Shown here: positions 3,509 through 55,540 of the stretch, piece after piece
Position numbering within the stretch: position 1 is the first letter of the stretch
How the letters are laid out: each line of letters starts with the position of its first letter
Assembly (NCBI GenBank): GCA_040954595.2
Contig: CM082578.2
Span: 16,848,998-16,912,997 of the forward strand
Reading direction: 5' to 3'
DNA from: Balanoglossus misakiensis
Lineage: Eukaryota; Animalia; Hemichordata
DNA length: 64,000 nucleotides
Notes under the pieces: generated by a model
What the model was told of the DNA's origin: nothing
Database searches by the model: none
The model's input: the letters and a program-made list of their open reading frames with translations, nothing else
Program-made: the position numbers and the translations under genes

Positions 3509-3514
3509 TTTATT
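3509..3514 (-). terminator. Candidate polyadenylation signal (AATAAA) of the divergent G-alpha gene
   Basis: tttatt on the + strand, ~570 nt past the stop codon at 4083. Confidence 0.4.
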
Positions 3515-4082: not shown

Positions 4083-7000
4083 TTACTGTATTAAATGACA
4101 CGCCTTCAGCGAACTTCTGATGATGATGTCGGTGACATCGTTGAAAACGTGTTCGATATTTTTCGTGTCTGTGGCACATGTGAAGTGGGTGTAAATTTCT
4201 CGGTCAGGTTTAAGGTTGCATTCTTCAAACTTGGCCTGGATGAATTCGCTTGCGTCATCGAAGCTACTGGGCCCTGGAGAGAGTGAGAAAAATGTTTAAA
4301 AAGTTGTGTGAAGCTTTAGGTTTAAATACTGCTCTAGTGTGTTGACTTTCTCGTAAAGGTATATGCTGAACAGTTTATTATATTGCGGCGAAGATAGAAC
4401 AGGATATTTCAATGTCGAATATTGTGTAGTTTTGACCCCTCGGCTGTTTAGTGTATCCGCTCTAAAGGCGCTCTACTTTAACATATTTTTCTGGTCATCT
4501 TTGCGCCAATATTTTAGATCCAGTTACTTGCGACATAAAACCTAGCACGATAATTACTGCCAGTTACCTGAATATTCAGGGAAGCATATCGTCAGCGGTG
4601 AACGCGTTACCTTCTCCTCGAAAATGTCTTTCTTGTTGAGAAATAAGATGAAAGAAGTATCTTCAAACCAGCCACTGTTTAGCGTAGACTCGAACAGTTT
4701 GCGCGATTCGTGCATGCGATTCTGAAAATGAAAAAAAAAAGTCAACTTCGTAAAAAAGGGTAATCCAAACCAAGGTAGAGAGTTATGCAAATTATCCGCG
4801 CTGGTGGCGATAACAACATTAGGCCTATGTGCATCAGGTGACATTCTGAAAAAAATGTTCATGCCTTTCCTGTTTTGATTTACAAAAATGGTATTTATCA
4901 ATTAATCCAATCCGATGTCTTAAATATAACATTACATCAGCCTTCCTCCTACTCATCCCTCGAATGATCAAATGGAGAATCCCTTAGTATATCGTCTTAT
5001 CTTAGCTATGATCCTCTGTTTTATTTATACATGTATATTATTCATATCACTGTGTCCCCTGAAAACTAACCAACAATAGATGAGTGTACAATGTAGGTAC
5101 GGCGGAGTCTTTACAGTAAGCAGCATGAGGTCTGAAATCATTACTTTCTGCGAATGATGTGGAGATGTGGGGGAGTACAGCATCCCGCTGATTGGGTGAC
5201 TGTAATTCCACTGACTGGCAAGGCCGACTTAACCTCCAAATCCTCATTGCATGTACCCCCCAACTGTGGACGCGGTTTATTAAGTTAGTCGTAATGACCA
5301 CTGTTTGGGTTTCCGAACTCGGGGAAACGCACTTAAATCGTGGGACAATCTTGTTTGAGAGTCAAAAAGGCCAACTGTACAACCGTGCAAGCTTTTAACG
5401 TCGCAGGGAAATTCAATATTTAAATAAGCTTACTTGATAGTTTTACAACAAACGAATTCTTGTACAATGATACGTAAGAGTTGATGAAGTAAGACTACAT
5501 CTATATATAGATTGTATTCGTACTATATTTCACTCTTATTTAGCAATGTCAGAGAAAGGTCGGAAATAATTTCGCGGTCCGTTTTGTCATTGATTGTCGG
5601 TTCATGCTTGTTAACCAAAGCATGCTTCACACGTTTTAATAGTATCTGTATAGACTGGCAACGACTTTTAAGACGTCGGTATCAATTTGAACGTGCTTTC
5701 ATTTTTTTTATTGTCACTTGCCAATTTTGGCGATTGCGCACTATAAATCATACGATTTTAGCTCCCACACCCCCAAGGAATACATCCGCGGATCGTGGCG
5801 CTATGTTTGGAATACTGGACACGTATTTGATTATCTCAAATTTCATATGCTGTCAATCTCGGTGCGAGAACGCCATGGGAAACTTTCAAGCGGCTGAGTC
5901 GTGTTTTTTTATAGTTCTGAAAATGGTCTAATTTTGGTTTCGGTGTTTTGAAAATCCTCCCACCCAAACTCCAATGCTGTTATGCTAAATTGGATATTAC
6001 TTTGCCGAATTTTCATCATACTGAATTGGGCATCCAATCTCGAATACTATTACCTGAAACGTGCCCAATGTCAGATCACGTCAATATAACACATATCACC
6101 GTTATCATATCATATCACATCATATCATATAAAAAACGCTCTAGTTTACACAAGTAATGGCTTACCGATTGCCACACAAATGGGTCTCAGCTTACCTTTT
6201 AAAAGGTAAAAAAATCTAAGTTTAGTTCTTTGATCTTTTAGAGAAATTCTTCATAGTACAAAGATATTTGTTCAAATACATTGTATATGAGCTTTTAATG
6301 CCTCGGAGAAAACGTGGCCGTTTACATTGGATGAAATATCATATCATGATGAATGTTGACAAAGTAAGATTATATTTTTACCCTTTTATTCCGACCTGTA
6401 GGTTTTTCCTTCTAAACCCAGACTATAAAGCGCACTATCTTCTGCATTTACGGCCTTAAATATCACGGTACCCCAAGAATTCTCCGCATGTAATGGCTTA
6501 TTGATTACTAGAAAGTCTAGAGATCTTTGACCGTTTACAAAAATAATTCATTTATATATATCTTATTGCAGTTATCGTGTTACATTGACTCAAATGTTTC
6601 TGTTCGATTCATAATGCATTTACGGCCTTAAAACGAGATTATTAATGCAGCTGTCTCGACAGCTGATCCAAAAATGTTGTGTGCTAGTGTTGACGTGACC
6701 ATATCAATTTCCCCTCGTGTTCTTCAGTATATCCTAGGAAAAACATTTGAAGCTTTCATAAATGTTAAATGGTGCACTTTCACGGTGTCTATCCGTGTGA
6801 CTTAATCGCATTCTTGTGACAGCCCTGGCGGACATGACATTCAGAATTCATTCATTTTGAAAGAGTGATCGAAACTTCTTGTATCTTTCTCGATTTCTTT
6901 GCGAGCAAAGCCTGACAGGATATGTCGTGTATCGGAAGAGTGTCTCGTGGTGTGTTCATACAACACCTCAGAGCCGGCTTTCAACCGAAACCGTCACCGG

Positions 7001-10000
7001 AGGATGCGCTAATTAGTCCGGAATTGTACGCGTGTATTCCCTTATATGATAACGACTGTTTAACCCTGCTGCAAACCGATCGCCATTTGTTTCAATACAG
7101 AGAAACTGCGCAGGTCTGTGGCCAGACGATTTTTACGAACACAAGTTTGCACATGCGCGTTGCACATAGTTACTTCTCTCTTGGCTGCAAGACACTTGAG
7201 GCGACGGATACTTGCACGAAGATAAATTGAAACTTTAATGCTACATAGAGAATCGGCAATCATTCCATTCACTCGTCTACCCACTTATTTGTCCATTAAG
7301 CCGCCCATCCGTAAATTAATAATTATGAACCACGTATATAAAATATCATCTTCCTACCATTTCCTCGTCTTCAGCCAAAACTAAATCATATTCACTAAGT
7401 GCTACACAAAAGATAATGGCGGTTACGTCTTCGAAACAGTGAATCCACTTCTTCCTCTGTGACCTCTGACCCCCAACGTCTACCATTCTGTAATACAAGA
7501 GAAAAGCATTCCAGTGTTCAGTGACAGCTAAACTCGATTATTCCATCCCATGGGCTCCGAAATCTCCTCCCTTCGCGAACCGACGGCGGTGTAAGAAGTT
7601 AACTTACTTAAAATGCAGTCGTCTAAATTCGAAATGCGTTTCGACGATACCGGTTGTTCTGACCCTGCTTTTGAGGACATCTTGCTGCGTGGGAATATAG
7701 TCGGGCGACGCCAAACGGTCGATGGAGTTCAGATAGTACGTGGTAGAGTCGTTCAGTTGGTACTCCCTGGACCTCTGGAGACAACTCTGTATGCCGCTGT
7801 CCAACCACAGTCTCTTTACACACGCCGCTAACTCTGGCTTGAAGACCCCTTCTTCAACGTCGCCCGCTTTAGCCAACACCCACTGAGCATCTTTCTGTGG
7901 GTGGAAACAAACAAAGAACCCCTGGTAAATCTTAGCATATTGTCAGACTTAAAAATTACTGTTGCTTTTAATATGCTGGTAGGGGTGCTAAATACCTACA
8001 ATGCAACTGATCGTTTTCAACACAAACCAGGATAACCTTTACCCGACTATCTGACCGCCTATTCATATCTGGTTGTCGAGACGGTGACTACTCTTGACGT
8101 CATCTGTTATAGAATACAATTTGATACCTTTGGATGAAAACCAGAAATTGTAATAAAGGTTGAGTACAGAAATTTCTTGAATTTCACATTTCCGTCGACG
8201 TAAAAAGAAACCTCAGCATGCTTAGTGGCCTTGGCCAGTTATATGCTTGACGTTATTTGACATCCTGTACAGAAATACTGCATTGAAATGATAAATTATT
8301 CTGATGAACTGGCGTATTTCGGTCTGCCGTAATGACAATGCTTGCCGAAAGGTTTTTCAGCAATTATTAGAATTCTACAGTTCAACCATTTCCCCCGCAG
8401 GTTAAATTTTTATCTCTTGCTTTGGATAACTGTGAAGTCAGACGAGAGTACATATTTATTTTCCCCAAGATCAAAATCATATAGAAATCGTCACCAAAGG
8501 TCAAACCTCTCCAGAAAAAGGTCGGAGAGTGTGTTTTTATACTCCAACAAACAACGCGACGCACGTTCGTCGACTGTCGACTTCAATGGCACTCAAAGAA
8601 GATTTGACGGAACCTGCACTAATTATAACCCTGGGCAGCGCGCACAACCACTGCCAAACAAGGAATCGATTTTACGGCGAAGCAAGGTACATTACAACTT
8701 TATACCTATAGCGCAGAGTCATTACCGACTGTCATTTGTATCAGCGACGCTTTATCACCGTAAAAGAGTGCTCCAACAATGCCCCAGTTTAAACCAGCAT
8801 AACTAGCCAGTTAATATTTGAATGAAACCTAAAACGGTTTCCTGATAAACTATCAACTGACCGCAATTGAAATTTATCGACTCAATTCGTCCGTGGTGAA
8901 ATATTGATACCGTCGCCTATACATACCCCTGGCCAGATAGTTAGATTTGCCTTGTACGATCAGGAGCCGAGCATTTCTCCTGTACACCTCATATGCCATT
9001 GATTTTATCAGACTATTCGTCTTCTTCGTGATTGACTTTCACCAAGATTTTCTTAAACATTTAATTGTTCTCGTTAAAATAAATCAAATACTCGTAAAGG
9101 GTAACAAAACCAACAACGTGCTTTACTTTTAACTCTAATGTCTTTTAAGCAACACGAACACGGTGTGCGATAACTCTTAATGATTTCGAGTCGATCTGAA
9201 TTCCTTCAACCACAGACAAATAGAAAAGATATACGCAAGCAGCAAGCTCCTAACACAAAGCTGACTGACCAACAGAACAACGTTCTTCGATTGTGATGCC
9301 CGCACATCCATGCGCAGTGTGGCCTAGAGACAGAGGGATATCGGGTGATGCCCAAAAGTTCCGGGTCCTGTTGTGTCAGTTGAAGTTTCATCTCATTCTG
9401 CTCGATATTTAGGGAATATTATTTACCCTTCTTAAAATGTCTCCCACGTTCTCACATTTCCACTTTTGTTTCTCGATCATCGGTCTTGCCAGTTATTGTC
9501 GCATTTTATTTTTAATCGTCTTGCGAGTCTGCCAGACAACCACTAATCGTCTGGGGGATCAGACAGACCCCGGATCTATTACTGGGAGTTTCTATTCTCT
9601 CAACTCCGAATTGTGGCTTGTTATCCACGGAGAATACCAATAGATAATTAACGCTAACTGCTCTCTTCGATTACCTTCATTAGATTCCGATCCTCCGCGT
9701 GACGTCAACAGACAGACTTGCTGTAGACGATGCGCTCGTTTTCTTAGATTGGAAATTACCAGAATTAATCTTAATGTTTATAGCGACGGAGATCCCCCCC
9801 CCCCCCTCCCCCGTAGATACCGGGCCACTGCCCAGGTAGTGCGCACACTTGAACGTGTCGTCGGGAGAGATGGACACAATGACATAGTGGAGGGTCTGTG
9901 CCTGCTTAAAGTTACCATTCGCAGCTGATTACTCAAGTAGATGGCGCTAAATATCGTCGCCTGCTGTGCCTAATGAAATGATGAGTAGTTTGAAGAGTAA

Positions 10001-13000
10001 TGCTTTAATAAGCTGCCATTGAGGTGTTCCATTCGTCAGCCATCCCTGTGAATAACCCCACAGCATAAGCTACTACCACGTATAATATTCTGAGTGGGCG
10101 TTACATATTTAGATTGGTACCGAAATAACATCACCAATTTACTGCTATAATTGATTTCTTGAATTATCCCGAGACAGAAATGAATTGATATAAATATTCC
10201 AATCATAGTGGCATTTAACTATCGCTGAGAACCAAAACGGAAGCTTGTCCGTCGTATTAAGTTGCGTCACCCAACAGACTGACGTGTATATAGAAGTAAG
10301 ATTTAGTGCAAGTGTGCTGTCAGATTGCCATTGACGAAAGCAGTCCAGTGAGGCATGTCTGAGTGACAGAGCGGACGCAAAACTCGTACCCTCAGGAGCC
10401 CCAGATGCACGTCCATGTTCTTCTAATCCTGATAATTCTTATTAAACCATCATCCCCCGCCAAAGCAAGTACAAGAAAGTCATTAAAGGCAGTAAACTAC
10501 AACCTTCACAAAATTGCCTTTTGATTTCGTCGTCTGTGTGTCCCAGCAGCGTGATGGGTGTACCTTGATCCAGAAACTCGCCCGAATGACTTGTAGGTCT
10601 TTATACAACAGAAATGAACTGGAAAGCGTGACCTTCTCTAAGCTCACTTCTTCTTCGTAATCTTTTACGATATACCAAATGACACGTGGAAATTTCTCCG
10701 CCCAAGTAATCACCCTTCAAAAAGAATTGGTCTCGTTATCTGACTGGCCGGAATTTAAAAACAAAATATCATTTTAATATTTCCACGATTGTGAGGAATT
10801 CAAGTTTTGTCAATCAAGTATCTAGCTTTAGGTATTGTCACTTTATGTTTTCGATAAGCCAACGCACAAACCGCTCGAAATCCACTAACTTCAAACTGCT
10901 AATTTGGTCGAATCTTTAAATTCTCAAAAAAGCACGAGATCCCGAACTTGCTTCCTCTTCCCTTTTGACACTTCTAAAATGGTTTCGCATCTTTGGCAAA
11001 AAAAAGATATTCCGTGCTCCTTTCATACATATCACCCCTTTGTACGAGAAGTAAGAAAGCGCGGTTCTTTATCGCGATGATTATGTACGTTCAATTTCCG
11101 CTATATTATTACTGTCGAGGGAGACATTCTAAAAAGACGCCAACATAGGGTCAAGCAAGACGTTTACAACAGATTTAACAGACCACATCTTAAGTTGGCT
11201 GTCACCTAGCAACCATCGCATTAGATTTGTCATTGCGATAAGGAGGACTGTTATCAATTAATGAGATTTTCTCGATAATACTCTGGCGGAATTAAAATCT
11301 AAATCCACTTTGTCATGCGCACCCAGGGCGCGTTTCGGTCTCACCCTATAGTGGAATCCTTCAAGGATGGTAACGTTGATTATTTGTGGTTTGAGGGGGG
11401 GGGGGCGATGTGATTTCTACGTCATCGTGCCTCTCACTCCCTTTTGTCTTGCATGAGTGACAGTGTTTTGTGCGAGCAATAGTCTGTGGCTGGCTTATCA
11501 CATCCTGCCTAGACCATTGTCACTCTGACTAATCTGAAAGCGAAAACATGTAAACCAAATTGAATTGCATGGACACACTCATTGGGGGCCGTTGTGCCAG
11601 AGTGCCTTTTGCGTGTGTCCGTGTTTTTTTCTTTTATCGGCGCTACATAGAATCTCTTCCAATCGCACGAAATTGACATGCCATTGTACTTAGCAAACAC
11701 ATATCAATCCGCCAAATTAGTGGCGATTGCCTTTCATGTCCCAGCCAATACCAAGAAGATAACATCTGTGGGAAAGAGGGAGAGATCTGGGAGCTAAAAC
11801 GTTACTATAGCAATTATCGTACCGTTCTCATATCCATGGAGAGTTGAAAAGCGGCATTAGTACATGCTTTGCTTTGAAGGCGTTTGTTCGATATTCAAGC
11901 TTCTCGTCGCTGGAAGCTGCGGTGGCGTGCGACCAGAAGCCAAGCTATAAATTTGCATAACGAACGTAATTTGAATAAAAAGCCGGCCGATATATTTGGA
12001 TATGCCTTTTGAAAACACGCTACATTATACACGGCGCTGGTGGGCGTTTATCAATTTCTAAGCAAGCACAAATTTGGTGACTGAGCTCGCGTGCAAAAAC
12101 TAATAAGGTCATCACGGTTTCCCAGATACCACCCATGTTTTGTCGACCGCAGAATATCGTGTGAAGCAATGTCAAAATCGTCACACATCTGTTCAGGTTA
12201 AATGCAAATTTTTAACTGCAAGACAAAGGCGGATCACGTGATATCATACGTTGAAGAGTTTTGGTGTTTTGCGTGTTTACTACCGCGTACAGCTGCTACT
12301 GTTTTAGTTGTCGGAGACTGTATAATGCTTTAAAATTTTCAACAAATGTACTCCTTCGGAGTCGTCGTTGATGATTTTTATTGATCATATATTGATGCAG
12401 CGCATTCTGAAGCAAAACCACATAAGAAGCGTACGGGAAATCATTTTACTTGCAACGACGTTCAGCGTTACGCGTCGCGTCGAATAACAGCCGCCCTTTC
12501 TAGGACTTTCGAAAGCATCTCCATGGAAACTTGCCGGAGGCAAAGTCGATAATGAGGCGGCAACGTCAGTCAATGTTACTGCTTACGGCAGAAAATGAAC
12601 GTTCGAACGCTGATGTGGGTTTGTGTGTGTGTGTGTGTGTGTGTGTGTTCACCAGATTGACACGATCGATTTCGAATACCAGGCAACATATTTTTGTGAT
12701 AAGTCTTCGCCTCGTTCATATATCTTGCCAACCTGTGGACATCAGTAACCGATTGATGTCTAACATAAACATTCGAATCAACAATGATCACTGTGCATCA
12801 GTTTTAGTTGACGTTGTCTGAACTTGTCATCATTGTGCAGTGTGTTATGGAAAGTCGCGAAACGGTCAAGTTTGTTTTCATCATTTCAGCGTTTAACACG
12901 TTGCTAATGTCAGATCGTAAATTGTCAAATTGTCACCACATTCACAATTTAGGTCATAAAATATCCCCTGTGCTTGCACCGAAAGGCCATAAAATATTCA

Positions 13001-14914
13001 CAGGGCTCTTTGAATAAGCATTATGTTGCAATAAATCGCGCTACAAGATGCCTGTCCATTTCATACAGATTTCTATGGCTACGCGGTTTGGCGTTACCTG
13101 CATGTGTGCACAGAGCAGAATGCTTCTAGTGTGCAGTGTCTTGGAAACGGATAATGAGAACGATATAGGTGTAATCGCGGCCGCTGAATTTACTGCGGCA
13201 TTGAATAGACTTTTAAAACATTTATCGATTTTCACATTATTTTATGTCTATTTTAATGGCCGTTCATTAAAGGGTGCGAATAATCGTCACACGGGGCGAG
13301 GTAAGCACTTAATTATTACGAGGGAGAGGGCCGAAGACTCTCAACTCTAAAAATAATCCTTATTACTTTCAGAGTTATCACGTGACGCAGTTCTCGTGTT
13401 CAATTTGCTGTCACACGCAGGCTCGAGCAACCCGTGCACGCACGCACGCACTCAAACGGGTCCAATTTGGGCCAGTAGACAGAAGAACGAGAAAATCGAA
13501 CTAATAGCTAATGCGCTTAGTTCGTAATTTATCGATCGATTATGGTTGAATGATAAACCATAATAAAACTGAGACTTTTAGGGCAAGTGGAAATCAGATT
13601 GAGGTCAAGATTGTAAATATCGGCAGGTGGACGGTGCAATTTTATATTGGATTTCTGTTTTGCAGTCGCCATCTTTTTCGCAACAAAATTTTACGGCTGA
13701 AATTGTCCGACGAGTCATAAATTCCTGTTATAACGCCTTGTGATAAACACTGACAAGCTGATACATTTGGCATTGAAGATTTCCAAAAAAACAGTGTTAT
13801 CCGCTAAATTTTGCTAGCAATCCGTTGCTACGGTAATTAACCAAGTCTCGCGAGATCTCGCAACGAGCGGATAATCATCTATTGCAAGGCGCGCAAAAAG
13901 AATCCGCGCAAGTGTTAACATTACTTTGAACGATACATTGCTTCCTTTAGATTAGGGTGCATTCATAACTTCAGCTGTGCATAGACCATGAAGGTCACCC
14001 GCAAATCGCCCTGAATATCGATCTCGTCTGAACAGTTTGGCGCCATTTAACCAACTGCCAAAGACGTTTCAAGAGGTTATTTCCATGGTTTGACATTAAT
14101 AGTTCCATAAACGTTAAAAGGTTTCCTGGCCTCCGTACCTGTCAAGTGAAATTTCCCCACTCAGAAACTGATGGTGCAAGCCGGCCCCTTGATACCAACA
14201 GAGGCGTCAATTTAAGCTTTACATTTGTGAGTTTGTTTCTGAGTAGCGAACCTATCGTTTGTGTGCAATCTTCGTTTTAGAGAGTTTCAGAGCCGATGTG
14301 TGTCCACTGTTGTTGTGGAGCGGACAGTAATCAATGTAATTAAACGCCAATATCTGTATGCAGAGATGCTAGAAGCGTTGCCGCGCCATCGATTTGAAAA
14401 TCAGCGTGTGTCCTCAACGACCCTTCTTAATCAGTTTACGCGAATTAACTATTTTGAAATTTCAGGCACGGCTCAGTTCCCTTGTATCATTAAAGCTGTT
14501 GGCGTTTTCGGAGAAACTTAATCCGATGCTCGCACCAACACTAATCAAGAATGGACAACACTAGTTATTTCAATTTGATTTTATAACCTAGTTACACCAT
14601 CTGATCTGCATAATTGATTCCGTGCAAGTTTTGTGCGCCACTTACCTTGTTGCTCTGGGGGGTTAAATTGATCAAGAAAGGTTTTGAGTTTGAGGAAAAT
14701 TAAATATTCGTTTTGCAGCAAACTGAATTCTACAAAAGTAGAGGGCACACCTCTATTTGTAATTAGCCACATGTGACATGTCTGAGTCCGTGCTCTGCTA
14801 ACAACGATTGGGCATTTGCTACTCCCGTGTTTACAATTGCGCAATAATATTACATGTACTTGAGAATTCGTGCTCTCCTTGCTCGCTGACAAGGAAGTGT
14901 CAGCTATCAATTTG

Positions 14915-14997
<83 letters not shown>

Positions 14998-17900
14998 CCA
15001 CCACCACCACCACCATCATCATCATCACGAGTGATTCGTCTCCGCTGTTCTAACTTTAGAATCTTGACAGTTAGACTGAGTGCGCGAATTCGTGTCCAGT
15101 TCTATACCTTGATTCAGAATTCTAGTCATGCCTTCATTTTTCCTTTCACAACGGAAAGCGGTTCTTTTTGTATTCCCGTGGATTATTAAATCACAAAACT
15201 TGTCTTGATGTGTAAATTAGGCAAAGGCACCGCGCCGTTCATGACAGGAGACCACTAATTAAGTTATTTTACTATCATAACTTCTTTTTCGTGTAAGTTC
15301 ACGTCTTGTTGAATTGATGGCATAATGGCGTATATACATACCACTCGATCAGTGTCTGCATACTCGATACTAAGCATATCCATGGCTCGAATTATAGCCA
15401 GCATCGACTGAATCATATTGCCATAGACGACTGGTTTGTGACGTAGGCATTCTTCTTTGCTGAAGCCGTCATGGTGAATTATTCTGCACGAATAAGAATG
15501 CCGAAAAAATACAATCTCAACCAGACAAATTATGCGAGATCAACTCAAAGGGCACACGCAAGATCTTAGACTAGGTATAAAAATAGTTTATGCGAAGCCC
15601 AACAAACTAACAACAGTCAGGGGTCCATCTCAAAGTCTGACTTCGTCTCTTGTACACGCATTTCAGCATTTCCGCACACAATGTAAAACGACACATCACC
15701 ACCGTCTTATTCTTGCGTTCAAATCTTATGGCCAGAACTTATATACGAAACAGAACACGACTTTAAATGTCGGTCGCCAGTCTCGTTTCTCCGAAACTTT
15801 AACGCAGAAACATCCAATTTTATCACTTGCAGTGCGTTTTCCTAGAAGAACACAGGCTGCCCCCGAGAGCATTGTATGCTACGCACATAGTCTGCTTTCG
15901 ATAAGGCCAGAAATTGGACGATGGTATCACTATCTAGACAAGGGATACTTACTTCATTTGCTTCACTATCGTGCTCTTGCCCGATTCACCAGCACCTGGA
16001 CAGTTGGAAAGAATGAGAAAGTTGTCAGTGAAAGATTTCATTGGAGCAAATGCGAGGTAGGTGCTTGTACCATTTAAGGGACATTTTAGATTAATTGGCC
16101 TGAAATACAGCAGTAGTTTTTAATTTTATTTAAAACCGTGATTGAGTTTAAAACCCACACCCCTTTGAGTGACAGCCACGGCGTGTAGTTGCTGTTCAGT
16201 AGCTCTAAGTTTTGCCTTGCCGTCTAAGACACAAACAAGGCAAAACCCTGTAGAGCTACTGGACTCCAGCCGTGCCGCCATAAACGCATTTCATTGGCAA
16301 TATGCTAATCTCCGATATCCAGTATCAACCGAGGTTGAGGTGAGGTCATCCACGCAGCAGTCGATTCTCAGATAATGACGACGAAGACACGCTTAAACAG
16401 ATTCTGTATGCTATACATAGAAGACACCGCGATCAAGTCTCTTTATAAGTCATTATATCAATCTGCGTTATCCATGGCTCTAACAATTTTAGTTCGGCAG
16501 CTTTAAGATGGAACAGGAAACATTAAAACTTGATAAGCCAGAAAGCGACAACGGATTAACCCCGCCAATATCTTGCCCAGTGGTCATAAAACGTTGATTT
16601 ATCAGAATTTTGCATGTCGATCATTTCAAGGGGTAGTTTTAAAATGTCACCGGGCCACAAATCCGCGCCATATACTGAATAGTTCAGTTGTAGCAACACC
16701 TAATAAAACATTTATATCACCATTTGGCCATCAACTAATGGCGACGACTTTGTTAAAGTTATCACGTGACGTATACACCAGATTTGGTCTGTCTGAGAAA
16801 ACGCTATCCGATGCCGCTCGTCTCCTTGTGATTTATTCGCAGAATTCGCGTATTCCATTCACGGAGATTCCCAATTCCTCGGCCCTTTTCCCAGAGTGAT
16901 CGGTGATATTACCGATACCGCTTCCCTAATGGAACCTGTGGACTCCGACTAATTAAGATCACGGAGAGATTTAATTAAGTGGACGTGTCACAGAATGCCC
17001 TGCACACAAAAAGCCCGCCGTTTCGGTTTCAACTTTTCTACTTGAAAACAACAACATTATTTTTAGCAATTTCTCGGGGAGAAATCGAAGGTGGCATAAA
17101 GGATGCATGCAGAGTGTATCCGCGAGAGTATGATGAGGCCTGCACGATACAGGAAATCAGCGGATACAGGATGTGACAAGTGACATCAATTTGTCATCGC
17201 ACGTTTCCCGTTCACCCAACAAACATCAAACATCTCCGATCAGTGTTCACGTTGTGATCCCCATGTATCTTCACGGTCGGTGTGCCGCTTCTGTCTCACC
17301 TGACCTCACTGCAAGCGTCAGAGTTCAGGGAAACGTGAATTTTTTCGTGGTACATCAACGGGAACTAGGCAACTTTGACGGCCACGCATGTCTCGCACCG
17401 GTTGTTATTTTCAAGTATAAAAACATAAGGGTGGCTTGGCCGATTCAGCACGTCATGTTTATCTATACATAACCCTGTTTTCAGTCAGGTTGTCAAGGAG
17501 GCTTAAATAACATAGCAACGAAGAGGTGGGTGGGCTAGATTTAGCTGTGGATTGGTCAGGTCGACTGATGTTTTCCAAAAACACGACCTTAACCTTTTTG
17601 CCTTTGTTGCATTGTGAGATATTTATCACGATCATGTTAGTAAATTGCCAATTTGCATAGTCACGTTCGTGTGCGAGTAGTGCAACGCTTCCAAACAGCT
17701 GTGCATGGTATTTCAATCCAAGAACTTCATTTGCATATACTCGTTTCTGCACCTGACATAGCACAGTTCAGGTTGGCACCATGAATTTGTCGTGTATTCA
17801 TTCTACTTCAGATGAGAAATATCTTTGACTTTAAGTCGTTTTAGATACGTTTTAGATATTGGGTATAATTTTTATGACCCTTCAAGTATCACAGGAAAGG

Positions 17901-20900
17901 TTTGTAAATTATGACTCTTCCACGTTCTTTCCACCCACCGCACCTCCCTCCCTCCCTCCCACAACGAGTGAAAGCTTCCTTACGGAGGCAACTGTTGGAA
18001 GACAGCAGCGTCTCAGATATTACGAACATTTCATAACAGTCACTGTGCCATTTCTGTAAAGATGAGACATCCGACATCTATAAATTGGAATGTCCGCGTG
18101 AAAGTCAATCCAGGTAGAAGTGAAACCCTTTTAAAGTCTACGCACAGAAAGAACGTGATATCATCTTCAATAGGATCGGTAAAGGAGCTTCTCAAAGCCA
18201 TACGGCACGTCTCGAGTTGGATAGGGGATCTTAATCTTTGATTCTGATCTTCCCACATCAGATCAAATTATTAACGCATATGGCATGAGGAGAGTTTTCA
18301 TTATATAGATAGCACGAGAAGACACTAACGAGGAGAAACGTCCGGTAAGGTTAATCTTCGAAGCGACGGGATGTGGGCAACCATATTGTGATATTGAAAT
18401 ACCGCCATATTGAGTCTTATGTCGTTTGCTCGCTTCATGTTATTAATACCGAAGACCTTTCATGCCGTTAAACTATACATGAAGGGTTTTGCGAGGGAAA
18501 TGATGAGCCAAAATAAAGACATACAGTGGCGATTACTGCCCCAAGGACGCCAGGATTTTTTTTCTTGAAGTAGCTTTACATTGTTGTAAATTCTAATCTG
18601 CAAATTCAAGATGTTGCTGCAGAGTAAATTTCCTAGATTTATACCGAACAACCTCTGAATGTTTGGTGTGAGAATTCAGCGAGGAAATCTATTCAAAAAG
18701 GATATGCGACGCAGCTGTCAACAAGAAAGGGAAACAGATAACATTCTAATGTTCGCACCTTTGTCAAATTCTATGCCTTCCCTCCATAAAAGCCACCATA
18801 CCAAATCCCTTGCGTACATCTGGAAAAATGTGATCTGGAAAACACAACTTTGGGCTTAAATCACACCTAAATCCTGGATTTTGTGGGCTGTGGTGAGGTT
18901 AAAAGGATTTGCAATAACTAAAATCTGTATAGCTTGTTTCATATAACGATAAATCATTTCTGCAAGTTGAAGTCTAGCTTCCATGTAAAACACGGTAGAC
19001 CCTCGAGAGTCTATATGACTACACGGCATTGCCACTCTGTCCAAATCGGATATATTGTCAATAGGTCTCGTCAGCATACAACAAGCAATTGGAACCAAAG
19101 CATTTTACGAATCTTTCAGTGGCATTTCAGCTGCAGTACAGTTTGCATAGCGTCTGGTATGCATTCATTTTTGTCGCTGTATCATATGTCTGTGTTTGAT
19201 ATCACATTTCAGGGAAAATTGAAAAAACACCGCAAATTTCATTTGGTTTTGTACTTGTGTCGGTGCATGTAAGAAATCGGAGCTCAATCCTTCATAGGAG
19301 ATTTTGTAAAGTCAATTGTGTTCAGTTAAGTTCTTAATCTGTCAAAATTTTCAGGAATCTCTATATAATGAAGTAAAAATTTCACTCTATGCATAGCAAT
19401 TACTCCACCATAGTGGAAATAACTGTGTCGAGGCAGATGGTACATGCACTGGCAGAAGCAATCAGACTAGCCTATAACATACAATCAATGTAGAGCTCTG
19501 CCCAATAATGGTCTGTGTATTTTTAACATTCAGCTGTAGATAATTGGCCTATTTGACTTGCGTGTTTCCTGCCTTCGTTCCTCCGTCGCCTCACGGGTTA
19601 AACGGACACCGGAGAGTGACGTACACATTTCACAGGACAGTTCAAAACGACGGTAAAACGAGCAGAGTCGATCCGCCGTCACACATGCGCATTTAATCGG
19701 ATTTAAAACGGGGCAATTATGGTTGGTTTTCGTGATCGTTTTCTGAGCCCCTTTCACATCCTGAATTTCGGTGCTCCACAAAATAGAGTTTTTTACGCAC
19801 CGATTGTGGTTAGTCTCCATACATACAGGTGTACATTTGTAAATGCATATGTGCCCGTCAGTTGTACGCAGTCTTCGATTATGCATGTACGGTTCACCAA
19901 TTTAATATTACGGTAATGTGAGAGGCTTCGTTGTGTCGCCGATAAAACCAAACAACGTAATAAGTTAACTGTTTTGTAACTATTACCTCCCCTAAACAAT
20001 ACTTGCGCGATGACTGGATACCTGGGAAGGCAGCCACGTGGATCTAATGCATAATACCTATTGAAAGACCTGTGTAATTTGATACTCTGAAAATAAATTG
20101 AAATTTCCTTAACTAATAGGAAAATATGCCCTGGGGACACATTGTAGAGTCCTTTGATTTGGGATGATTAATTGAAACCGATAAGTACACATCCGCTTTG
20201 GAAAAAAATGAATAAGCACGTGTTTCTGTTGAATTTAAAAAGAAGTAATCTCAATGGAGAAACACTTATGGAGGAACGGACGATCTTGATTACAATGTAA
20301 AGAATATACCCTTATTGTAGAATCCTCCGAGTGTTGCAGTCTGCATTCAGTATTAAAGGTTGGAGTGTTCTTATTGGGACAGGGGGTACCTCTCAAAGAT
20401 ATCAGGGTGTTATCGGTATTCCGATTCGCGGTATAATCTGTAGGGCTTTGGTACTTAACGGTTTGTCTAATGTGATTTTTAGTGCATTCGACTAGAACAC
20501 ATGCTGCCCCACCGCGAGCAAGCAACAAACGCCATGCACTTTTGAGTAGTGACATATTTCACCATAAGTGGCCCACACTAAGTGAGACGGAATGACGTCG
20601 GTGGAAGAGTAAAGCAAATTCCTGCAGGTAATGCTCGTCCTGTCGCGAATAACTATGTCCTGGCAACATCTACCCTGACTGATCCAGATTTTCGCACTTT
20701 TGTTATTTTACAAATTAAATTAAATCACGCGACTGCGTCTGGCACGGGCCTGTCAATCCGAGTGCAAAAAATCACGATTTGAATATTACTTTCTGACCAA
20801 CTCAACCATCATGACAACTGTAGGGTGTGTGATTTGTATAATCGCGTAAGTGGCTTGCACTTTTGCAAGTACAATGCACTTACTCAGATTTCACAGCGAA

Positions 20901-23900
20901 CAGACTCGACATTGGCCAATGAATGTGTTTTGTTCCATGGTCTGTATGATATGACAATTGATCACTTATATTACGATCGACGAATAGGATGATGATTACA
21001 ATTTTTGATTTGGAATATTAGTTGAATGTATCTATTCTACCAGTGCTGCGTGTAGATGGCAATTATCCTAACCCACGCGATCTGACTCAAACCAGAAATT
21101 GTGTCAGAACGTTTAGAATTTTCACATAATTGCGCACACGCGGAGGACTGGTTGTATATGTATACAGTGATGGACAGGATGTAATTTACTGTTCACTATT
21201 GTCCAATCCGCACTACTTCAACTGTACAGTTGAAGAAGTCCCTGGCTGCATAAACAAGATCTTGAGAAGATTACTCCTCAAATGGAACAACATTACCAAC
21301 AGTGTAAAAAGATGGAAGTTTTGTCCTCCGTAGAATACAGATACAAGTGTTTGGCATTTACTAAGGGTAGTTGTGGATGAGAGCAGCGCCAGTGTGTCTT
21401 GGTATTTCTCGACACGGATTTTGCCCTGTCTGAGTTTCTTATATGGGTATTGATGTCTGTTGGCACAATTGCTTTGAGATGTGGACGAGGAGTATCATTA
21501 AGGGTGTGCTTCACCGTTCCTTTCGGTAAACCATCTCCACCTCCGCTTGCAAACTCTTGAAAACATATCCGCAGATGTTGAGCGGCAAGGTTCGACCGCG
21601 ATTGCTGTTTCACGGGGATTTCGACAAAGATTTGTCGAGTTGAACCAGGATAACGTTTTTGATGATCACTTGAGACACTCTCTGAGTTATTTCAGATGTG
21701 AATTCCATGCCAAACATAGCTCTTTGGGATCACTTCATAGATATATGGAATACCATAATTAATAGCCCTTTCGGGTATCGGGTTTTACGTGTAGAGATAG
21801 CTTTTGATGGGGATTCGGGTGATGAATTTGTACCACTTGAGACTGTTAGTAGGGACTCGGCTGTGGACTATCTCCCAAATGGTTCGCTCACATTTATTTG
21901 TCTATTGCAGTCTAACTTTCATTTTATGGGTTTACGTGTGACACGACTGTAAGGTCAATGCACGTGGGCGGTTTTACAAGCGAACCTTTTCATCAGTATC
22001 GTAACTTAACTCGATCTGCGTACACTTGTGCTTCTGAGAAACTATTTCACGTGCCAGACTTGTACTTCTCGGACAAAGTACTTAATTGGAAAAAAGGGGA
22101 CAAGAGTCTTGGAGGACTTCAGGCTGTCATTTGAAGGTTTCTCCGACAGGATTCTTTCACAAACCGTATTAGGAAACTAATAACCCACCTGACATGGCGG
22201 TTAATGATAATGGATGCGAATGCGCCAGACGTGGCAATGATTTGATAGGTTCAGGTGATGATTACATTCGCTTTAAAGAGATCCAGAGAATTACAAACAG
22301 AGTAATCAAGAAGCCGGATTGAAAAGCGTCTAAAGGAGGGAGAAATGGAAATCTTTAATTCTGCCGAGAGAAGAGTAAATCCAGTTGACAGTGAAGGGGG
22401 TAAGGGCTCGGCGAAAAAAGCCAACGAGATTAACGCAGTTTGACTAAAAGCCGGTTGAGGGGATGGGGAGGTGATGTCACTATGTAGATGAGAGATGCGA
22501 CGGGGTTAAAATCAATCGCCTATGACGAGAGTATCGACAGCTGCATCTTTTCACATTGCGAAATGAATTAAGGAAATCTTTGTGTCAAATTGGTGTTATC
22601 TTTTGATATTTTGTGTGTCTGTCTGCCGGTTTGAACACTGTACACGCGTGACCTTTGACCTTTTACTGTTTCGGCAACTAACATACACTGTATATATACG
22701 TACTCAGATTTCCTAGTTATAGGAAGTGGGAGTAAAGTTCAGTGCCATTTTTATGCAGTTATGTTTTGTACTGGAGATTTACAGGTATTAGTTTGCAGGT
22801 CATGTATTTGTGCCTCACAACACGGTCCCTCTATTCAATAATGACTACAATCACGTGATTGATGGTGTTTGCCTGAGTTTAATTAAACGTCACCCAGTTA
22901 ATCATAGTCAAAATATGGTCAAACGACTCAAATGTTTTTTTAGATAAATACGTTACAGCAGGTAATTTGAAAACAATTTCTAAAGTAATACATGTAATGA
23001 GAAACGCTGTTGTGCTCCAATTAGATTAGGTCGCATTATCAGTGCCATGCGTGCTGCCCATAGGGGGTATCAATATTTTATGTCGGTTGTATTAGTATGG
23101 CACGGAGAGTGAAAAATCGACTACATCCTCTTCATACCTGCGAGGCTCCCCGGAGAGGTTTGCCATGTTTGTACCGATGAGGAAGGAGTTTACAGGGTCT
23201 GAGGCAAACATTTGTGTCTGAAAATCGTGACAACATCGTAGGGGTGTCCAAAATAACCATCACCGCTGGCAACGAAATCGTTTGCTTGTTTTCGGATTGA
23301 AACAATATAAGGCTTCGGTTTTAACTTGGATTTGTTTTTTTGGGGGGTGGTTGGGTTGTGATTGATTGATTGATTGGTTGGTTGGTTGGTTGGTTGGTTG
23401 GTTGGTTGGTTGGTTGATTGATTGATTGATTGATTTACTATGTCTATATTTAAAAAACTGCCTCAAAAGAGATGAATAGGCATGTGCATGGCCAGGTACT
23501 CCGCAAAGAATCAATATCGCCGATTGGACTCTGACAGTGTACTTGCGTGACGCAGTGACACCATCAATTAAGAGGTTAACAGCACAAAACTTGTGCAGGT
23601 AGCGGTAACCGAACTCTTTGTTTCCTGATATTAAAGATCGGAGTCAGGGCACGCCACAGATCATTTGGAGACTGACAGCGTGGTGTGTGTATACACATCA
23701 ATTGATATGCGGCAGTGTACTTGTCCCGTCGGTTCATTATCGAAAGCAATGACGCTGTCTGCTGTAATGTAGACGGACAGAGGAGACGGGATTAGGCCAA
23801 GTGCAAGTAGCATGTTCCATTGACGATTGACTGCCCTCCCACGGGAGATCCGGCTCACGTGATAAGTAGATACGTACAGGAGATGTTAACTAACTAGATT

Positions 23901-26900
23901 CTGTGAGAAAAAATACGTATTAAGATATTCACATTACAATGCGCCGTAGTTATATCGTTTCTGGACCAGTGTTCTGAATACTCCTAGAACATTACTGCGT
24001 TCGCCACAGAGCTCGTCCTATATCTGTCATACGGGTATCAGTGAATTTATTTTCTTCTAATGTCAGATTACTGAGCATGGAACCCATGTGCCTCAGTGGT
24101 AAATCGGTCTTTTCAGCTGCAAGTGTCAGCCCCTCGCCATTGTGCAGTGAACAACTTTCAATTTGCACGAGTGGACCGCTTGTATACCCCACGTGATATT
24201 TTCCCCAGTAAGTGATTAATTTCGACTGCATCAAACCACATTAAGACATTCTCGCGTTCACCTCTAAGGCATGATTTCATTCTCGCGCTCACACCATTCA
24301 CGTGAACATTTCTACAAATGCTTCAGCGATGTGATCTTTGTACAATGAGAGCGCAGCCTGTCGAGAAGTAAATGGAAAAATTGATTTTCTGTTAAGCCTT
24401 ATGTGGGATCGCAATTTAGCACAGTCATCCAAAAGGTCGGCGATGAAAAGAACCGACTCTCCAACTTTCAAGGAAATTAAGCACATCGCGTGAGTAAGCG
24501 ACTCTGCGGATTATTTTTCTCGGTAACAGTCACGTTATGCTCGTCTATAGTCGCCATACATCTATCGCAGGAATATACAATAGTCCGTTCAAATCATAGG
24601 CACTCGAATAAAAAAGTATCTATGTTTCAATCCTCGTATAGTTCTATATATGTTCAGTGCTTGGATTACTCTCAATATCCACAACGCAAATTTATCATAC
24701 TTTAGAGAATAAATACAACAACAGAAACCAGGGCTTGTTTTTTCGTTCCAGGACGAATTGAGCAAATAAACGACGTTATCATTGTTATGCCCAATATATA
24801 TGCGGTGGGTCACATCATTCCAAGAAAGCTGGGTAGTTATACTTTGATGATCACCGCCATGATGGGAGGGGGGGGGGGACAAGTAATTTATGCACAAATA
24901 GGAATGATATTACATTCTGTCAACAGAATATCTGGACGTAATAGCTTTCTTTGTATTGGAAAGCAGTTCGGCTAAGCGTGACTGTCGGATGTGCGCTTGA
25001 CCAAGTTCAATCGCAATTGGCAGAATATTTCATTGAACACTGAAGAAAAGGTTATTATGTGCACGCAATATTGACACAGATGTGCTACTGTTCGTGCGCC
25101 TATTACCCGTAATTGCCCTTGTGATTAACATAATTTATGGCGGAGTCATTTTGATTGAAGGCGTCAAGGTTAATTACGTTTCATTCAAAAACCTCAAAAA
25201 CGTGTATTTGTCATTAACCATGTTCTTTACTAGCTGCTTGCAAGCAAGTCGGGAAAAAATGAATAATACAGAAATGCAAAAAAAAGCGTCAACTATAGTG
25301 TGGTGTCAATTATGACAACAGCTGTGTTATGCAAAACAGCTAATTTGTAGGCAAATTACACTCACGAATATGCGTATTCGCGGTAGCAAAAAAATGGCTC
25401 GTTATACACCATAGTTTCCCAAGGCTTGTGGCTTGTATATCAAATTATCAACATTTTCAATCAAGAGGCCAGACAGACTGTACACGGATTGTACCAAAGC
25501 ACAAATTGAGAGTGTGACCCCCGCCAATACATTAGTTTTTTTCTACCTTTGTTATCAACAAATTGAGGCTAAGTACGCGTCTTTCCTTGACTCCAATGCA
25601 ATTTACTTTTCTAGACGAAGTTAATGTGATGTTTTCATATTTCCATTTGCTCACAACATCGAAGTTACAGTGCCCGAAGAAAGCTATTACCGCGTCACAA
25701 GTTGACGGAAACATTAAGCCATGACAATACCAGGCGTCGCTATAGTTACGTTGTTTTCAATGTAACACGATTGTATACCATTTCTATGAATCTGAAATAT
25801 GAACTGAGTACAGCAGACTGTTATCTAATGATCACAGATACTCTTCCATAATTTTGCGACCAGGGACAAGCTTTGGAAATCAATCTGTCGGCGACGTGAA
25901 AATCAGATAAATTTCGATTTGTCAAATGCCGACTGTATGTATACGTACAAATGTATGTAGGTATATTGGCAGCGTGACAGTGTTACTAATAAACGAGGGG
26001 CGGAAGACAACCTGATTGGGTGATAAACGACGCGCTTCTCTTTGTTGTGGGGAATTTGAAAATCGTCCCGCTTTTTCATTTCACTTCGTCTGGCCTCTTG
26101 AATTTTAGCACTAGACTGTATACGTGTAAAGCGACTCTTCCCATTGGCACACAGCTGCGTGCGTGACATCGACTCGGAAATAAACTCGCTCAGTCACAGA
26201 CCGGGCCGTTCTTATGCAGTGATATCCCCCGCGAGTGAGCACTTCAAAGGCGTAATTTACATAATAGGAAAAAAGGGCTCCTATATCTCTTACTCTTAGT
26301 GATGGGAGCTGTATCGTATCATCTCTTCGGTTAAAACTGGGAGCGAAACTGCAATGCGCTTAAAACGGATTGAGTTTACTTCACTTAAAGTACATCGTAC
26401 CGCTCTCTGAGAATTGACTGGGAGTGAAAATGCGAGTCGTGATGACAGCCGGTTTTGCCATGAGCTGGGCTAACACACTCACGCACACTCACACCATGTT
26501 TAATACATGATCAACCAAATGGGCGGGCTGCGCTCACCCAGGGAAAGAAGATTGTTTTCGACATTACAAGAAATATCGCTTTCTATTTAAGGATGCCGTT
26601 GGTTCGCTAACGACTTGTCGATTATTAACTTTTCACGTGGTACGTGAAAAATCAATTCGACTTTTTATTGCTTCACTTGAACTCGGGACCCGATTAAAAT
26701 TTTACGCGCATAAACGGGTCACAACATGCCCAGAATCGAGATCGCTCGCCTGGGATAAAAACAATCGAACGTCATTTGTCCAGAAACAAACTTGCAAGAA
26801 AATCGAAGTGCATGCTCGTATACGTGGGGGAAGGGTCATTATTTCTTCAATTTTCGCGGCACACCACACGACAATATTTTCAACTAGGTCTACGCTAGTA

Positions 26901-27130
26901 TAGTGAAATTGGTCCTGCAGAGGTTATTGTTATGTAGTACATCTCGTTGTAAATATTTAGGTTTAAAAAACGCGAAATTCCGCCGCGTTCACAAACTTAC
27001 CTAGCAGGAGAAGTTTCACCTCTTTGTCCGCTCTTTGTTTTGCCGCTTTAATGTCTTTGTCGATCATTTTAGATCGTCGAGCCGCATTCTTATCCTGGTA
27101 ACTGTTGCCACAACACGTAACCATTGTCAT
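4083..27130 (-). CDS. Divergent heterotrimeric G-protein alpha subunit of the Gi/o family (local paralog of GNAI); 7 coding exons, ~358 aa
   Basis: Coding exons (minus): 27130-27001 ([44 protein letters not shown]), 15995-15953 ([15 protein letters not shown]), 15483-15342 ([47 protein letters not shown]), 7894-7608 (KDAQWV...[25 protein letters not shown]), 7487-7358 ([43 protein letters not shown]), 4721-4568 ([10 protein letters not shown]...FLNKKD...FPEYSG), 4273-4083 (...[38 protein letters not shown]). All introns are GT-AG with compatible phases. Sizes 130/43/142/287/130/154/191 sum to 1077 nt with no stop or frameshift. An alternative in-frame ATG lies at 27124. Confidence 0.95.
12622..12648. 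repeat. (TG)n microsatellite
   Basis: About 13 TG units. Confidence 0.95.
14916..15027. repeat. Compound (CAT)n/(CAC)n microsatellite
   Basis: A long CAT run interrupted by a CAC run, intronic. Confidence 0.97.
21230..21400 (+). mobile_element. Possible highly decayed RTE-type LINE 3' fragment in intron 1 of the divergent G-alpha
   Basis: Translates as [17 protein letters not shown], then across a stop and a frameshift [15 protein letters not shown]. This resembles the post-RT motif NKCLRRILxIxW..ITN...RRxxWLGHVLRM of RTE-clade elements. Confidence 0.3.
23359..23435. repeat. Compound (GATT)n(GGTT)n(GATT)n tetranucleotide microsatellite
   Basis: Read directly from the sequence. Confidence 0.95.
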
Positions 27131-29679: not shown

Positions 29680-31098
29680 CTATGAACAGTCCGTGTATGT
29701 GGTCACCATATTGCCAACTCTTTGCGTCACTGTGCGGCAAGTTTTTCCTCCTGAAAACAAAACCATAATATAAAATGTTGACATCAATGATCATAGTTTC
29801 AGCTTAGTACAATGTACCTGACCCCATTTTACATTTTTTCCAGAATTTTTTAAATTAATTTTCCAGTAATTTTAATTCCTCACCTGATCTGTGTGTGTTC
29901 ATCTGTTTATGTACTGTTTTATGTACCTGCAAAAAAAATATATTCATTAGAAAAAACTTTAAATGGGAATTATTATTTTGCATGTTTGAAATTTAACTGG
30001 TTGGCCAACTGACTGACCGATCGACTGTCTGTCTTTCTGGGCTTGATCACTGAGTAAATCGTGCAGATGTGCAAATACCAGGCAGGCAGCAATCATGTAT
30101 AATTCAACAATACACGTAACATACCTTTGCATGAGAATTCTGGTGCTGTTTCGAAGCTCCTCCAAAGTTGAAATGGAATCCATTGCCACCACCTGTATGA
30201 CTTCCAAACAGATCTCCAAACATATCAAAACCAAAGTCATCATTATCGTCCTCGTCCCCCCAGAAGTCATTATCAAATTTAAAATGACTGTCTCCAAAGT
30301 TGAAATTGAAGTGACCATTTCCTCCTGATCGCTTGCTTCCACGCCCATGGTATGTGTTAAAACTTTCATCAAAGCTTTTGAAAAAGTCATTGAAGTTGAA
30401 TTTAAACTCTCCACCACCGCCGCCAGTGCCCCTGTTGGCATGCTCCTCAAATGCCGATGCTCCAAGTTGGTCATACTGTCTGCGTTTGTCAGGATCAGAT
30501 AGTACTTCATATGCTGCCAAGGAAAAGTAGAGACATGCAAATCAATACTTGAGAAGAAACTTAGTGAAGCAGGAGCAAAGTTAAACAGACGTAAACAACC
30601 CCTCCTTCCACCAGTGCCCCTGTGTTTGTACTATCTCTGATTTATAGCAGGTCATATTCTGATCTCAGATGGGAAGACTACAAGTTGTTTATGCCATCTT
30701 AGAAGGTTATAAAAGTTCATCACAGACAAGTAATGTTATGTGCTTGCATAAAATTACAATTGTCTGTAAGTATGACAAAATTCTCTTCATGGTGAAGCAA
30801 ACTTGTTACTGAAATTGACGTTAATAATCATGCTTGTTAGATAGAGGCCACATTCAAGAACAATCCATATGTGTACATTACCTTTGGCTATTTCAACAAA
30901 TTGACTTTCAGCATCAGGGTCTGTGTTTTTGTCAGGGTGGTACTTCACAGCTAATTTCCTGAAAGCTTTCTTGATCTGTCTGTCTGACGCATCTCTTGGA
31001 ACACCCAGAATGTCATAGTAGTCCCTTGTTTTGGAAAGGACCATTTGACAAAGCAGGAAGCTGCAGGCGCAGGCAAAGACTACTGCTTGACATTGCAT
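29680..31098 (-). CDS. DNAJB9: DnaJ homolog subfamily B member 9 (ERdj4), ER-luminal Hsp40; 4 coding exons, ~239 aa
   Basis: Exons 31098-30882 (signal peptide plus J-domain with the HPD motif), 30513-30125 (AYEVLSD..., G/F-rich region), 29926-29884 (43-nt small exon [15 protein letters not shown]) and 29750-29680 ([22 protein letters not shown]). Phases join and the total is 720 nt. The C-terminus matches the characteristic DNAJB9 tail [19 protein letters not shown]. A probable 5'UTR exon has its donor at 31439/31438, with an acceptor at 31113. Confidence 0.93.

Positions 31099-41452: not shown

Positions 41453-55540
<14,088 letters not shown>

What the first reader, a model, noticed from the sequence alone, without database searches (positions are those of the whole stretch)
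4083..27130. Intact but strongly remodelled second Gi-family alpha subunit next to canonical GNAI: a candidate new G-alpha subtype
Seen: a complete 7-exon ORF whose six intron positions and phases, and exon 2-7 sizes (43/142/287/130/154/191), match the GNAI gene whose start codon lies ~14 kb away in the opposite orientation. All GTPase boxes are kept (GAGESGKS, switch-I Arg/Thr in RVRTTG, DVGGQ, NKKD, TCAT), yet the membrane-anchoring, effector and receptor surfaces are changed. Established: the 287-nt segment fits Gi length (158+129 in vertebrate GNAI; Go has one codon more), and the sequence lacks the GAAESGKS P-loop and TTATD box I recall for Gv. Inference: a neofunctionalised local duplicate defining a lineage-specific GPCR pathway, analogous to, and possibly independent of, the local GNAI duplication that produced vertebrate transducin/gustducin (GNAT).
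Basis: partly seen in the sequence, partly recalled or inferred. Interest (0 to 1): 0.82.

Follow-up and report, generated by a model that had tools for sequence, protein, structure and literature searches.

The report
Acorn-worm-specific rewired G-alpha protein
Acorn worms carry an intact second copy of the inhibitory G-protein gene whose membrane-, receptor- and effector-facing parts are altered in the same way in four species, so it likely serves its own signalling pathway and likely arose separately from the vertebrate vision protein transducin; a 2018 paper probably already noted the gene but left its origin open.

Summary
In detail: an intact 7-exon G-alpha gene on the minus strand, with the same six introns as the GNAI gene starting 14.3 kb away. 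Two corrections: the start is likely ATG 27142, not 27130, and three genes lie between the pair. Orthologs (83-93% identical) turned up only in acorn worms of three families, so the gene is over 370 My old and constrained. It is probably GIb_AcornWorm of Lokits 2018 (PMC5896119), left there as a possible transducin ancestor at bootstrap 14. Here the four copies form a clade (100/100), sister to transducin in 0 of 1000 bootstrap trees, with 3 of 27 transducin-diagnostic residues. That grouping is disfavoured but not firmly rejected (p-AU 0.02-0.31). Nesting in Go or Gq is rejected. Both paralogs lack the ancestral Gi intron 4, which favours a separate local duplication; this was not checked in relatives. 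The 39 fixed changes concentrate in effector and receptor surfaces, and the myristoylation glycine is gone. Expression and function are untested. The scan's earlier notes held no report of this gene.

The parts
27001..27142 (-). Paralog exon 1 from the likely start ATG 27142; no Gly2, tandem Cys10-Cys11
   Evidence: orthologs share this N-terminus
15953..15995 (-). Paralog exon 2 (43 nt), P-loop
15342..15483 (-). Paralog exon 3 (142 nt)
7608..7894 (-). Paralog exon 4 (287 nt), equal to canonical Gi exons 4+5 without intron 4; switch I Arg186/Thr189
7358..7487 (-). Paralog exon 5 (130 nt), switch II with catalytic Gln212, switch III
4568..4721 (-). Paralog exon 6 (154 nt), remodelled alpha3 and alpha3-beta5 loop, NKKD box
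4083..4273 (-). Paralog exon 7 (191 nt with stop), remodelled alpha4-beta6 loop and alpha5, TCAT box, one-residue C-terminal extension
41477..55540 (+). Canonical GNAI, 7 coding exons (41477-41594, 51319-51361, 51847-51988, 52187-52473, 52970-53099, 54257-54410, 55350-55540), also without intron 4
   Evidence: protein identical to P0353 (Ptychodera/Glandiceps GNAI), 353 of 354 to Saccoglossus GNAI
30104..31134 (-). Intervening DnaJ-domain gene (two exon-bearing frames; full extent not mapped)
   Evidence: PF00226, E 8e-20
32084..34843 (+). Intervening LON substrate-binding-domain gene, cereblon-like (name recalled; extent approximate)
   Evidence: (PF02190, E 2e-7)
36098..39742 (-). Intervening SK potassium-channel-like gene (extent approximate)
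   Evidence: (PF03530, E 3e-10)

Best explanation
This is an intact G-alpha gene, shared by acorn worms of three families, that likely arose by local duplication of GNAI after the lineage leading to acorn worms split from chordates, separately from vertebrate transducin, and that is predicted to work as a normal GTP switch for a different set of receptors and effectors than Gi. Shown: intact frame, catalytic boxes, orthologs, fixed changes in the alpha3/alpha3-beta5, alpha4-beta6 and alpha5 surfaces, loss of Gly2, a tandem Cys pair. Inferred: it is anchored by palmitoylation alone, like Gq; still binds G-beta-gamma; is activated by its own GPCRs through the changed alpha5 tail; does not inhibit adenylyl cyclase in the Gi manner; and signals through released G-beta-gamma plus an unidentified effector.
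For: Intact frame and G boxes. Orthologs at 93.1, 83.1 and 82.6% identity in Ptychodera, Glandiceps and Saccoglossus; 3 of 491 fetched proteins carry all 39 diagnostic residues, the next best 13. Clade 100/100 with a stem of 0.75 changes per site and a shallow crown, i.e. a burst followed by constraint. Of 258 Gi-conserved sites 39 are fixed differently; 22 of 50 in alpha3/alpha3-beta5, alpha4-beta6 and alpha5 against 17 of 208 elsewhere (Fisher p 1e-8), none of 25 in the P-loop region and none of 11 in beta6-TCAT; the changed regions are invariant among the four copies at 21 of 23, 9 of 10 and 23 of 24 sites. PMC8252600 (passages): the alpha3-beta5 loop is key to effector selectivity, the C-terminus to receptor specificity, and myristoylation is required for adenylyl cyclase inhibition. 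The G11 protein P0221 has a tandem Cys pair at 9-10. The model of the Ptychodera ortholog has pLDDT 94.3 and rmsd 0.8 A to Gi1. Origin: both genes lack intron 4, whereas eight exons is the conserved GNAI state (PMC5896119) and gene-model breaks show that border in tunicate and shark GNAI and in Go proteins. Best placements are at the base of ambulacrarian/deuterostome GNAI.
Against: Placement is weak: sister to ambulacrarian GNAI has support 53/0 and appears in 469 of 1000 bootstrap trees, sister to acorn-worm GNAI in 57. Ten quick simple-model trees placed it in several different positions, 2 of them outside all Gi, Go, Gt and Gz. The tree misplaces Gz and roots on Gt, a sign of long-branch artefacts. 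The paralog lacks three residues specific to acorn-worm GNAI (Y191, L198, Q244), so the duplication is older than those. The intron-4 state of Saccoglossus, Glandiceps and echinoderm genes was not seen; parallel loss is possible. No expression or biochemical data.
Confidence: 0.62

Rival explanations
1. It is the surviving ortholog of the transducin ancestor (GNAT0): the GNAI duplication happened in the deuterostome ancestor and the copy was lost in echinoderms, amphioxus and tunicates.
For: Lokits 2018 placed GIb_AcornWorm at the root of GNAT, bootstrap 14. Both are local neighbours of GNAI. AU tests mostly fail to reject it: 0.088, 0.31 and 0.25 under LG, 0.077 under one site-mixture run. 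It shares 3 transducin-diagnostic residues.
Against: Sister to Gt in 0 of 1000 bootstrap trees, and the forced shared stem has length 2e-6. p-AU 0.021 under the other site-mixture run. At 27 Gt-diagnostic sites the four copies have the Gi state at 17 (two are ties), another state at 7 and the Gt state at 3. It needs parallel loss of intron 4 in both acorn-worm genes and three gene losses. PMC9790638 and PMC4948711 (passages) place the GNAI-GNAT duplication within chordates.
Confidence: 0.1
2. It is an older Gi/o-type duplicate from the deuterostome, bilaterian or earlier stem, unrelated to GNAT, kept only in acorn worms or too diverged to be recognised in echinoderms.
For: Placements sister to all deuterostome, bilaterian or all Gi are not rejected (p-AU 0.2-0.87). 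It shares 6 of 27 Go-diagnostic residues. Crown-of-thorns starfish has extra Gi-like or unassigned G-alpha genes (PMC6233551, PMC5442662; passages) that were not in my set.
Against: Shared intron loss with, and position beside, acorn-worm GNAI. No diagnostic-residue match outside acorn worms among 491 proteins, although only the best 120 hits of each search were listed.
Confidence: 0.15
3. It is a tissue-restricted but functionally ordinary Gi: same receptors and effectors, with divergence from relaxed constraint.
For: 185 of 258 Gi-conserved sites are unchanged in all four copies, including 25 of 28 in switch II and 12 of 12 in switch III. The alpha5 Leu, Cys and Leu hook positions are kept.
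Against: The changed surfaces are nearly invariant among the four copies, which relaxed constraint does not predict. Gly2 is lost, and myristoylation is reported as required for adenylyl cyclase inhibition.
Confidence: 0.11
4. It is a decaying pseudogene.
For: No RNA evidence was seen.
Against: Intact frames in four species. Against GNAI, synonymous sites are saturated (pS 0.86) while dN is 0.24.
Confidence: 0.02

Closest known systems
GIb_AcornWorm (putative preGNAT0) of Saccoglossus, Lokits et al. 2018, PMC5896119
   Same: A second GNAI-like gene in tandem with GNAI in an acorn worm. P0004 lies on a scaffold of the same length (886,964) as Saccoglossus GNAI, five accession numbers away, so it is very probably that gene.
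   Different: Identity is inferred: the paper's tree files could not be read. The passages I read give no orthologs, surface changes or intron loss, and call the pair head to head in one section and head to tail in another.
G-alpha-i (GNAI1-3; invertebrate GNAI)
   Same: 65-67% identity, same G boxes, exon borders and predicted fold.
   Different: No Gly2, an eight-residue N-terminal extension with a Cys pair, 39 fixed changes, one residue shorter alpha4-beta6 loop, His for the C-cap Gly, one extra C-terminal residue so that the Cys sits fifth from the end.
Transducin/gustducin (GNAT1-3)
   Same: A diverged local duplicate of GNAI.
   Different: 56-59% identity, 3 of 27 diagnostic residues; GNAT keeps Gly2 and the Gi-type tail.
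G-alpha-q/11
   Same: No Gly2 and an N-terminal Cys pair.
   Different: 48% identity; nesting in Gq rejected; the paralog has the Gi-type 43/142 exon split.

Membership tests
Heterotrimeric G-alpha (PF00503) | Five G boxes with catalytic Arg and Gln; Ras-like plus helical domain | tested here: met
   (profile and model from the Ptychodera ortholog, 93% identical)
Heterotrimeric G-alpha (PF00503) | GTP binding and hydrolysis, G-beta-gamma binding | not testable with these tools
   needs biochemistry
Gi/o class by descent | Gi-type exon borders | tested here: met
   six borders and phases identical to the neighbouring GNAI
Gi/o class by descent | Groups inside the Gi/o class | tested here: inconclusive
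   inside in the mixture-model tree; sister to Gi+Go not rejected (p-AU 0.07-0.49); outside in 2 of 10 quick trees
G-alpha-i subtype (functional) | N-terminal myristoylation glycine | tested here: not met
   absent in all four copies from any candidate start
G-alpha-i subtype (functional) | C-terminal Cys modified by pertussis toxin (G.H5.23) | tested here: inconclusive
   Cys kept at the aligned position but fifth from the end, next Gly changed to His
G-alpha-i subtype (functional) | Inhibits adenylyl cyclase | not testable with these tools
   predicted lost
Transducin (Gt) | Gt-diagnostic residues | tested here: not met
   3 of 27
Transducin (Gt) | Forms a clade with GNAT | tested here: inconclusive
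   0 of 1000 bootstrap trees; p-AU 0.02-0.31
Go | Nests among Go; extra helical-domain residue | tested here: not met
   nesting p-AU 1e-4 or lower; insertion absent and 6 of 27 diagnostic residues; four Go rows only
Gz | GTSNSGKS P-loop | tested here: not met
   sister to Gz p-AU 0.02-0.16
Gq | Nests in Gq | tested here: not met
   nesting p-AU below 1e-30; sister to Gq 0.024 and 0.054
Gv | Groups with Gv; Gv P-loop (motif recalled) | tested here: inconclusive
   p-AU 0.012 and 0.033 against one Lingula protein chosen by a recalled motif, not a named Gv

The most novel reading that the evidence does not exclude
The gene is the living invertebrate sister of the transducin ancestor: the duplication behind vertebrate vision and taste signalling dates to the deuterostome ancestor, and acorn worms keep the copy with a separately rebuilt receptor and effector interface.
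Probability: 0.1. Interest if true: 0.75.

Novelty: new variant of a known kind. Interest (0 to 1): 0.42.

Why it matters
G-alpha subtypes are few and very conserved: the acorn-worm GNAI differs at 0-1 of 354 residues across three families. A copy that lost myristoylation, rebuilt the receptor and effector surfaces and then held them for over 370 My is a natural experiment in G-protein selectivity, and a parallel to the duplication that gave transducin. It also bears on an open point of Lokits 2018, whether transducin's origin predates chordates; the shared intron loss turns that into a simple check in existing genomes. Interest is limited because the gene was probably noted already, lineage-specific G-alpha duplicates are common, and no function is known.

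Tried and rejected
No whole genome is held for the window. No RNA holder was listed for 3300-8000; this is no evidence on expression. A metagenome scan with exon 7 gave 18 loci of 42-56% identity, none an ortholog. Rfam: 0 matches in the window. The ESM Atlas gave only generic G-alpha clusters. The scan's earlier notes: none near this place, three unrelated Naegleria notes by sequence. A first structure run on 19 sequences was poor (pLDDT 66.9); 112 sequences gave 94.3. Recent gene conversion between the paralogs was rejected: 24 of 84 fourfold sites identical, no peak near the lost intron (3 of 8). Lokits' grouping with GNAT was not reproduced with one Saccoglossus sequence: 0 of 5 quick trees; a bootstrap run of that set timed out and one mixture run crashed and was redone. 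dN/dS among orthologs could not be computed, as no ortholog DNA was available. Gs, G12 and named Gv sequences were not in the trees. Literature searches found no paper but PMC5896119 that discusses this gene; subscription papers are not covered.

Full report
Observation. Six-frame motif scans found two G-alpha genes in the window. Splicing at AG/GT borders gave two intact frames. The minus-strand gene has coding exons 27142-27001, 15995-15953, 15483-15342, 7894-7608, 7487-7358, 4721-4568 and 4273-4083. The plus-strand GNAI runs from 41477 to 55540. Exons 2-7 have the same sizes (43/142/287/130/154/191) and intron phases in both, and the proteins are 67.4% identical. The genes are transcribed away from each other, and a DnaJ-domain gene, a LON-domain gene and an SK-channel-like gene lie between them.

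Relatives. An exon-4 search (725 hits of 948 candidates, best 120 listed) and a search with the Ptychodera protein (2527 of 7982, best 120 listed) gave three orthologs: Ptychodera flava, Glandiceps talaboti and Saccoglossus kowalevskii, at 93.1, 83.1 and 82.6% identity to the window's protein. All other hits were 68% or less. The window's GNAI is identical to the Ptychodera/Glandiceps GNAI and differs from Saccoglossus at 1 of 354 sites. The window is therefore an acorn worm, probably a ptychoderid (inference). In Ptychodera and Saccoglossus the two proteins have contigs of equal length and accession numbers six and five apart, which suggests the same linkage. Ptychoderids and spengelids split more than 370 My ago and harrimaniids lie outside them (PMC11175523, passages), so the gene is older than that. 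Among 491 fetched proteins of 150 aa or more, only these three carry all 39 diagnostic residues; the next has 13. Because only the best hits were listed, a strongly diverged echinoderm ortholog is not excluded.

Prior report. Lokits et al. [quoted passage not shown] Their tree supplements could not be read, so the match to P0004 is inferred from linkage. Reviews place the GNAI-GNAT duplication within chordates (PMC9790638, PMC4948711; passages) or simply before the vertebrate genome duplications (PMC3826523; passages).

Phylogeny. I aligned 51 rows and kept 39, dropping 12: one Gi and one Go with faulty ends, three long unnamed or protist rows, and seven near-redundant rows. Under a site-mixture model the four copies form a clade (100/100) with a stem of 0.75 changes per site. 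It lies on the invertebrate-Gi side of a 96/95 branch that leaves out vertebrate Gi and Gt. Its sister in 1000 bootstrap trees was all ambulacrarian GNAI in 469, acorn-worm GNAI in 57, and Gt in none. Forcing it with Gt costs 7.3 log units (p-AU 0.088) and the shared stem collapses to 2e-6. On a fixed species-like backbone, the best placements were at the base of ambulacrarian or deuterostome GNAI; sister to Gt scored p-AU 0.31 and 0.021, and 0.25 and 0.077 with two more outgroup rows. Nesting inside Go or Gq was rejected (p-AU 1e-4 or lower), whereas sister to Go scored 0.04-0.11 and sister to Gi+Go 0.07-0.49. Ten quick trees placed the clade variously, never sister to Gt alone, twice outside all of Gi, Go, Gt and Gz. 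The main tree also misplaces Gz and roots on Gt, so long branches distort it. Protein sequence thus excludes ordinary Go or Gq identity and disfavours, but does not exclude, transducin orthology.

Diagnostic residues and introns. At 27 sites where Gt differs from Gi, the copies have the Gi state at 17 (two ties), another state at 7 and the Gt state at 3; at 27 Go-diagnostic sites, Gi 14, other 7, Go 6. Both window genes carry a single 287-nt exon. Eight coding exons is the conserved GNAI state from sponges to lampreys, and gene-model breaks mark that border in tunicate and shark GNAI and in Go proteins; the 158+129 split and eight exons in GNAT are recalled, and one search showed no such break in a Gt protein. 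One loss before the duplication is the simplest account and would place the duplication after the split from chordates. I could not see this intron in other acorn worms or echinoderms, so parallel loss remains possible. Recent conversion is unlikely (24 of 84 fourfold sites identical). The paralog lacks three residues specific to acorn-worm GNAI, so the duplication was early.

Likely working. Of 258 Gi-conserved sites, 185 are unchanged and 39 are fixed differently in all four copies. The changes number 8 of 21 in alpha3/alpha3-beta5, 4 of 6 in alpha4-beta6, 10 of 23 in alpha5 and 6 of 18 in the N-terminal helix, against 0 of 25 around the P-loop, 3 of 28 in switch II, 0 of 12 in switch III and 0 of 11 in beta6-TCAT. 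The first three regions together give 22 of 50 against 17 of 208 (p 1e-8; regions set after seeing the list). They are nearly invariant among the copies. A review (PMC8252600, passages) assigns effector selectivity to the alpha3-beta5 loop, receptor specificity to the C-terminus, and makes myristoylation a requirement for adenylyl cyclase inhibition. The paralog has no Gly2 but a Cys pair like G11. The Ptychodera ortholog models confidently as a Gi-like fold (pLDDT 94.3; rmsd 0.8 A to Gi1). I infer a working GTP switch, anchored by palmitate, coupled to its own receptors, not inhibiting adenylyl cyclase, and signalling through G-beta-gamma and an unknown effector. None of these steps was tested, and no RNA run was listed.

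Verdict. A real, old, acorn-worm-restricted G-alpha variant derived from GNAI, probably already noted as a gene but, in the papers my searches reached, not characterised. New variant of a known kind; interest 0.42. The transducin-ortholog reading keeps about 10%.

Noticed in passing
window 36098-39742 (-): SK-channel-like gene (PF03530) whose pore frame at 37850-38170 reads GFGD, where GYGD is the usual potassium-channel filter (recalled); its first long exon spans about 1.3 kb.
   Followed up: no
window 32084-34843 (+): Cereblon-like gene (LON substrate-binding domain) lying head to head with a DnaJ gene at 31134, under 1 kb apart; a shared promoter is possible.
   Followed up: partly
window 61704-63998 (-): Single long frame with many leucine-rich repeats, an Ig domain and a transmembrane segment; its first repeats are near-identical copies of about 72 aa, suggesting recent internal duplication. 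It runs off the window end.
   Followed up: partly
window 41477-55540 (+): The GNAI protein is identical to that of Ptychodera and Glandiceps and differs from Saccoglossus at one residue, over more than 370 My.
   Followed up: yes
proteins P0003 and P0129: Tunicate GNAI models contain both copies of the duplicated exon 5 that Lokits 2018 reports as alternatively spliced.
   Followed up: partly
PMC5896119 sections 16 and 23: The paper calls the acorn-worm pair head to head in one place and head to tail in another; in this window the genes are transcribed away from each other. As I recall, two human GNAI-GNAT pairs face each other at their 3' ends, which would differ; not checked.
   Followed up: no
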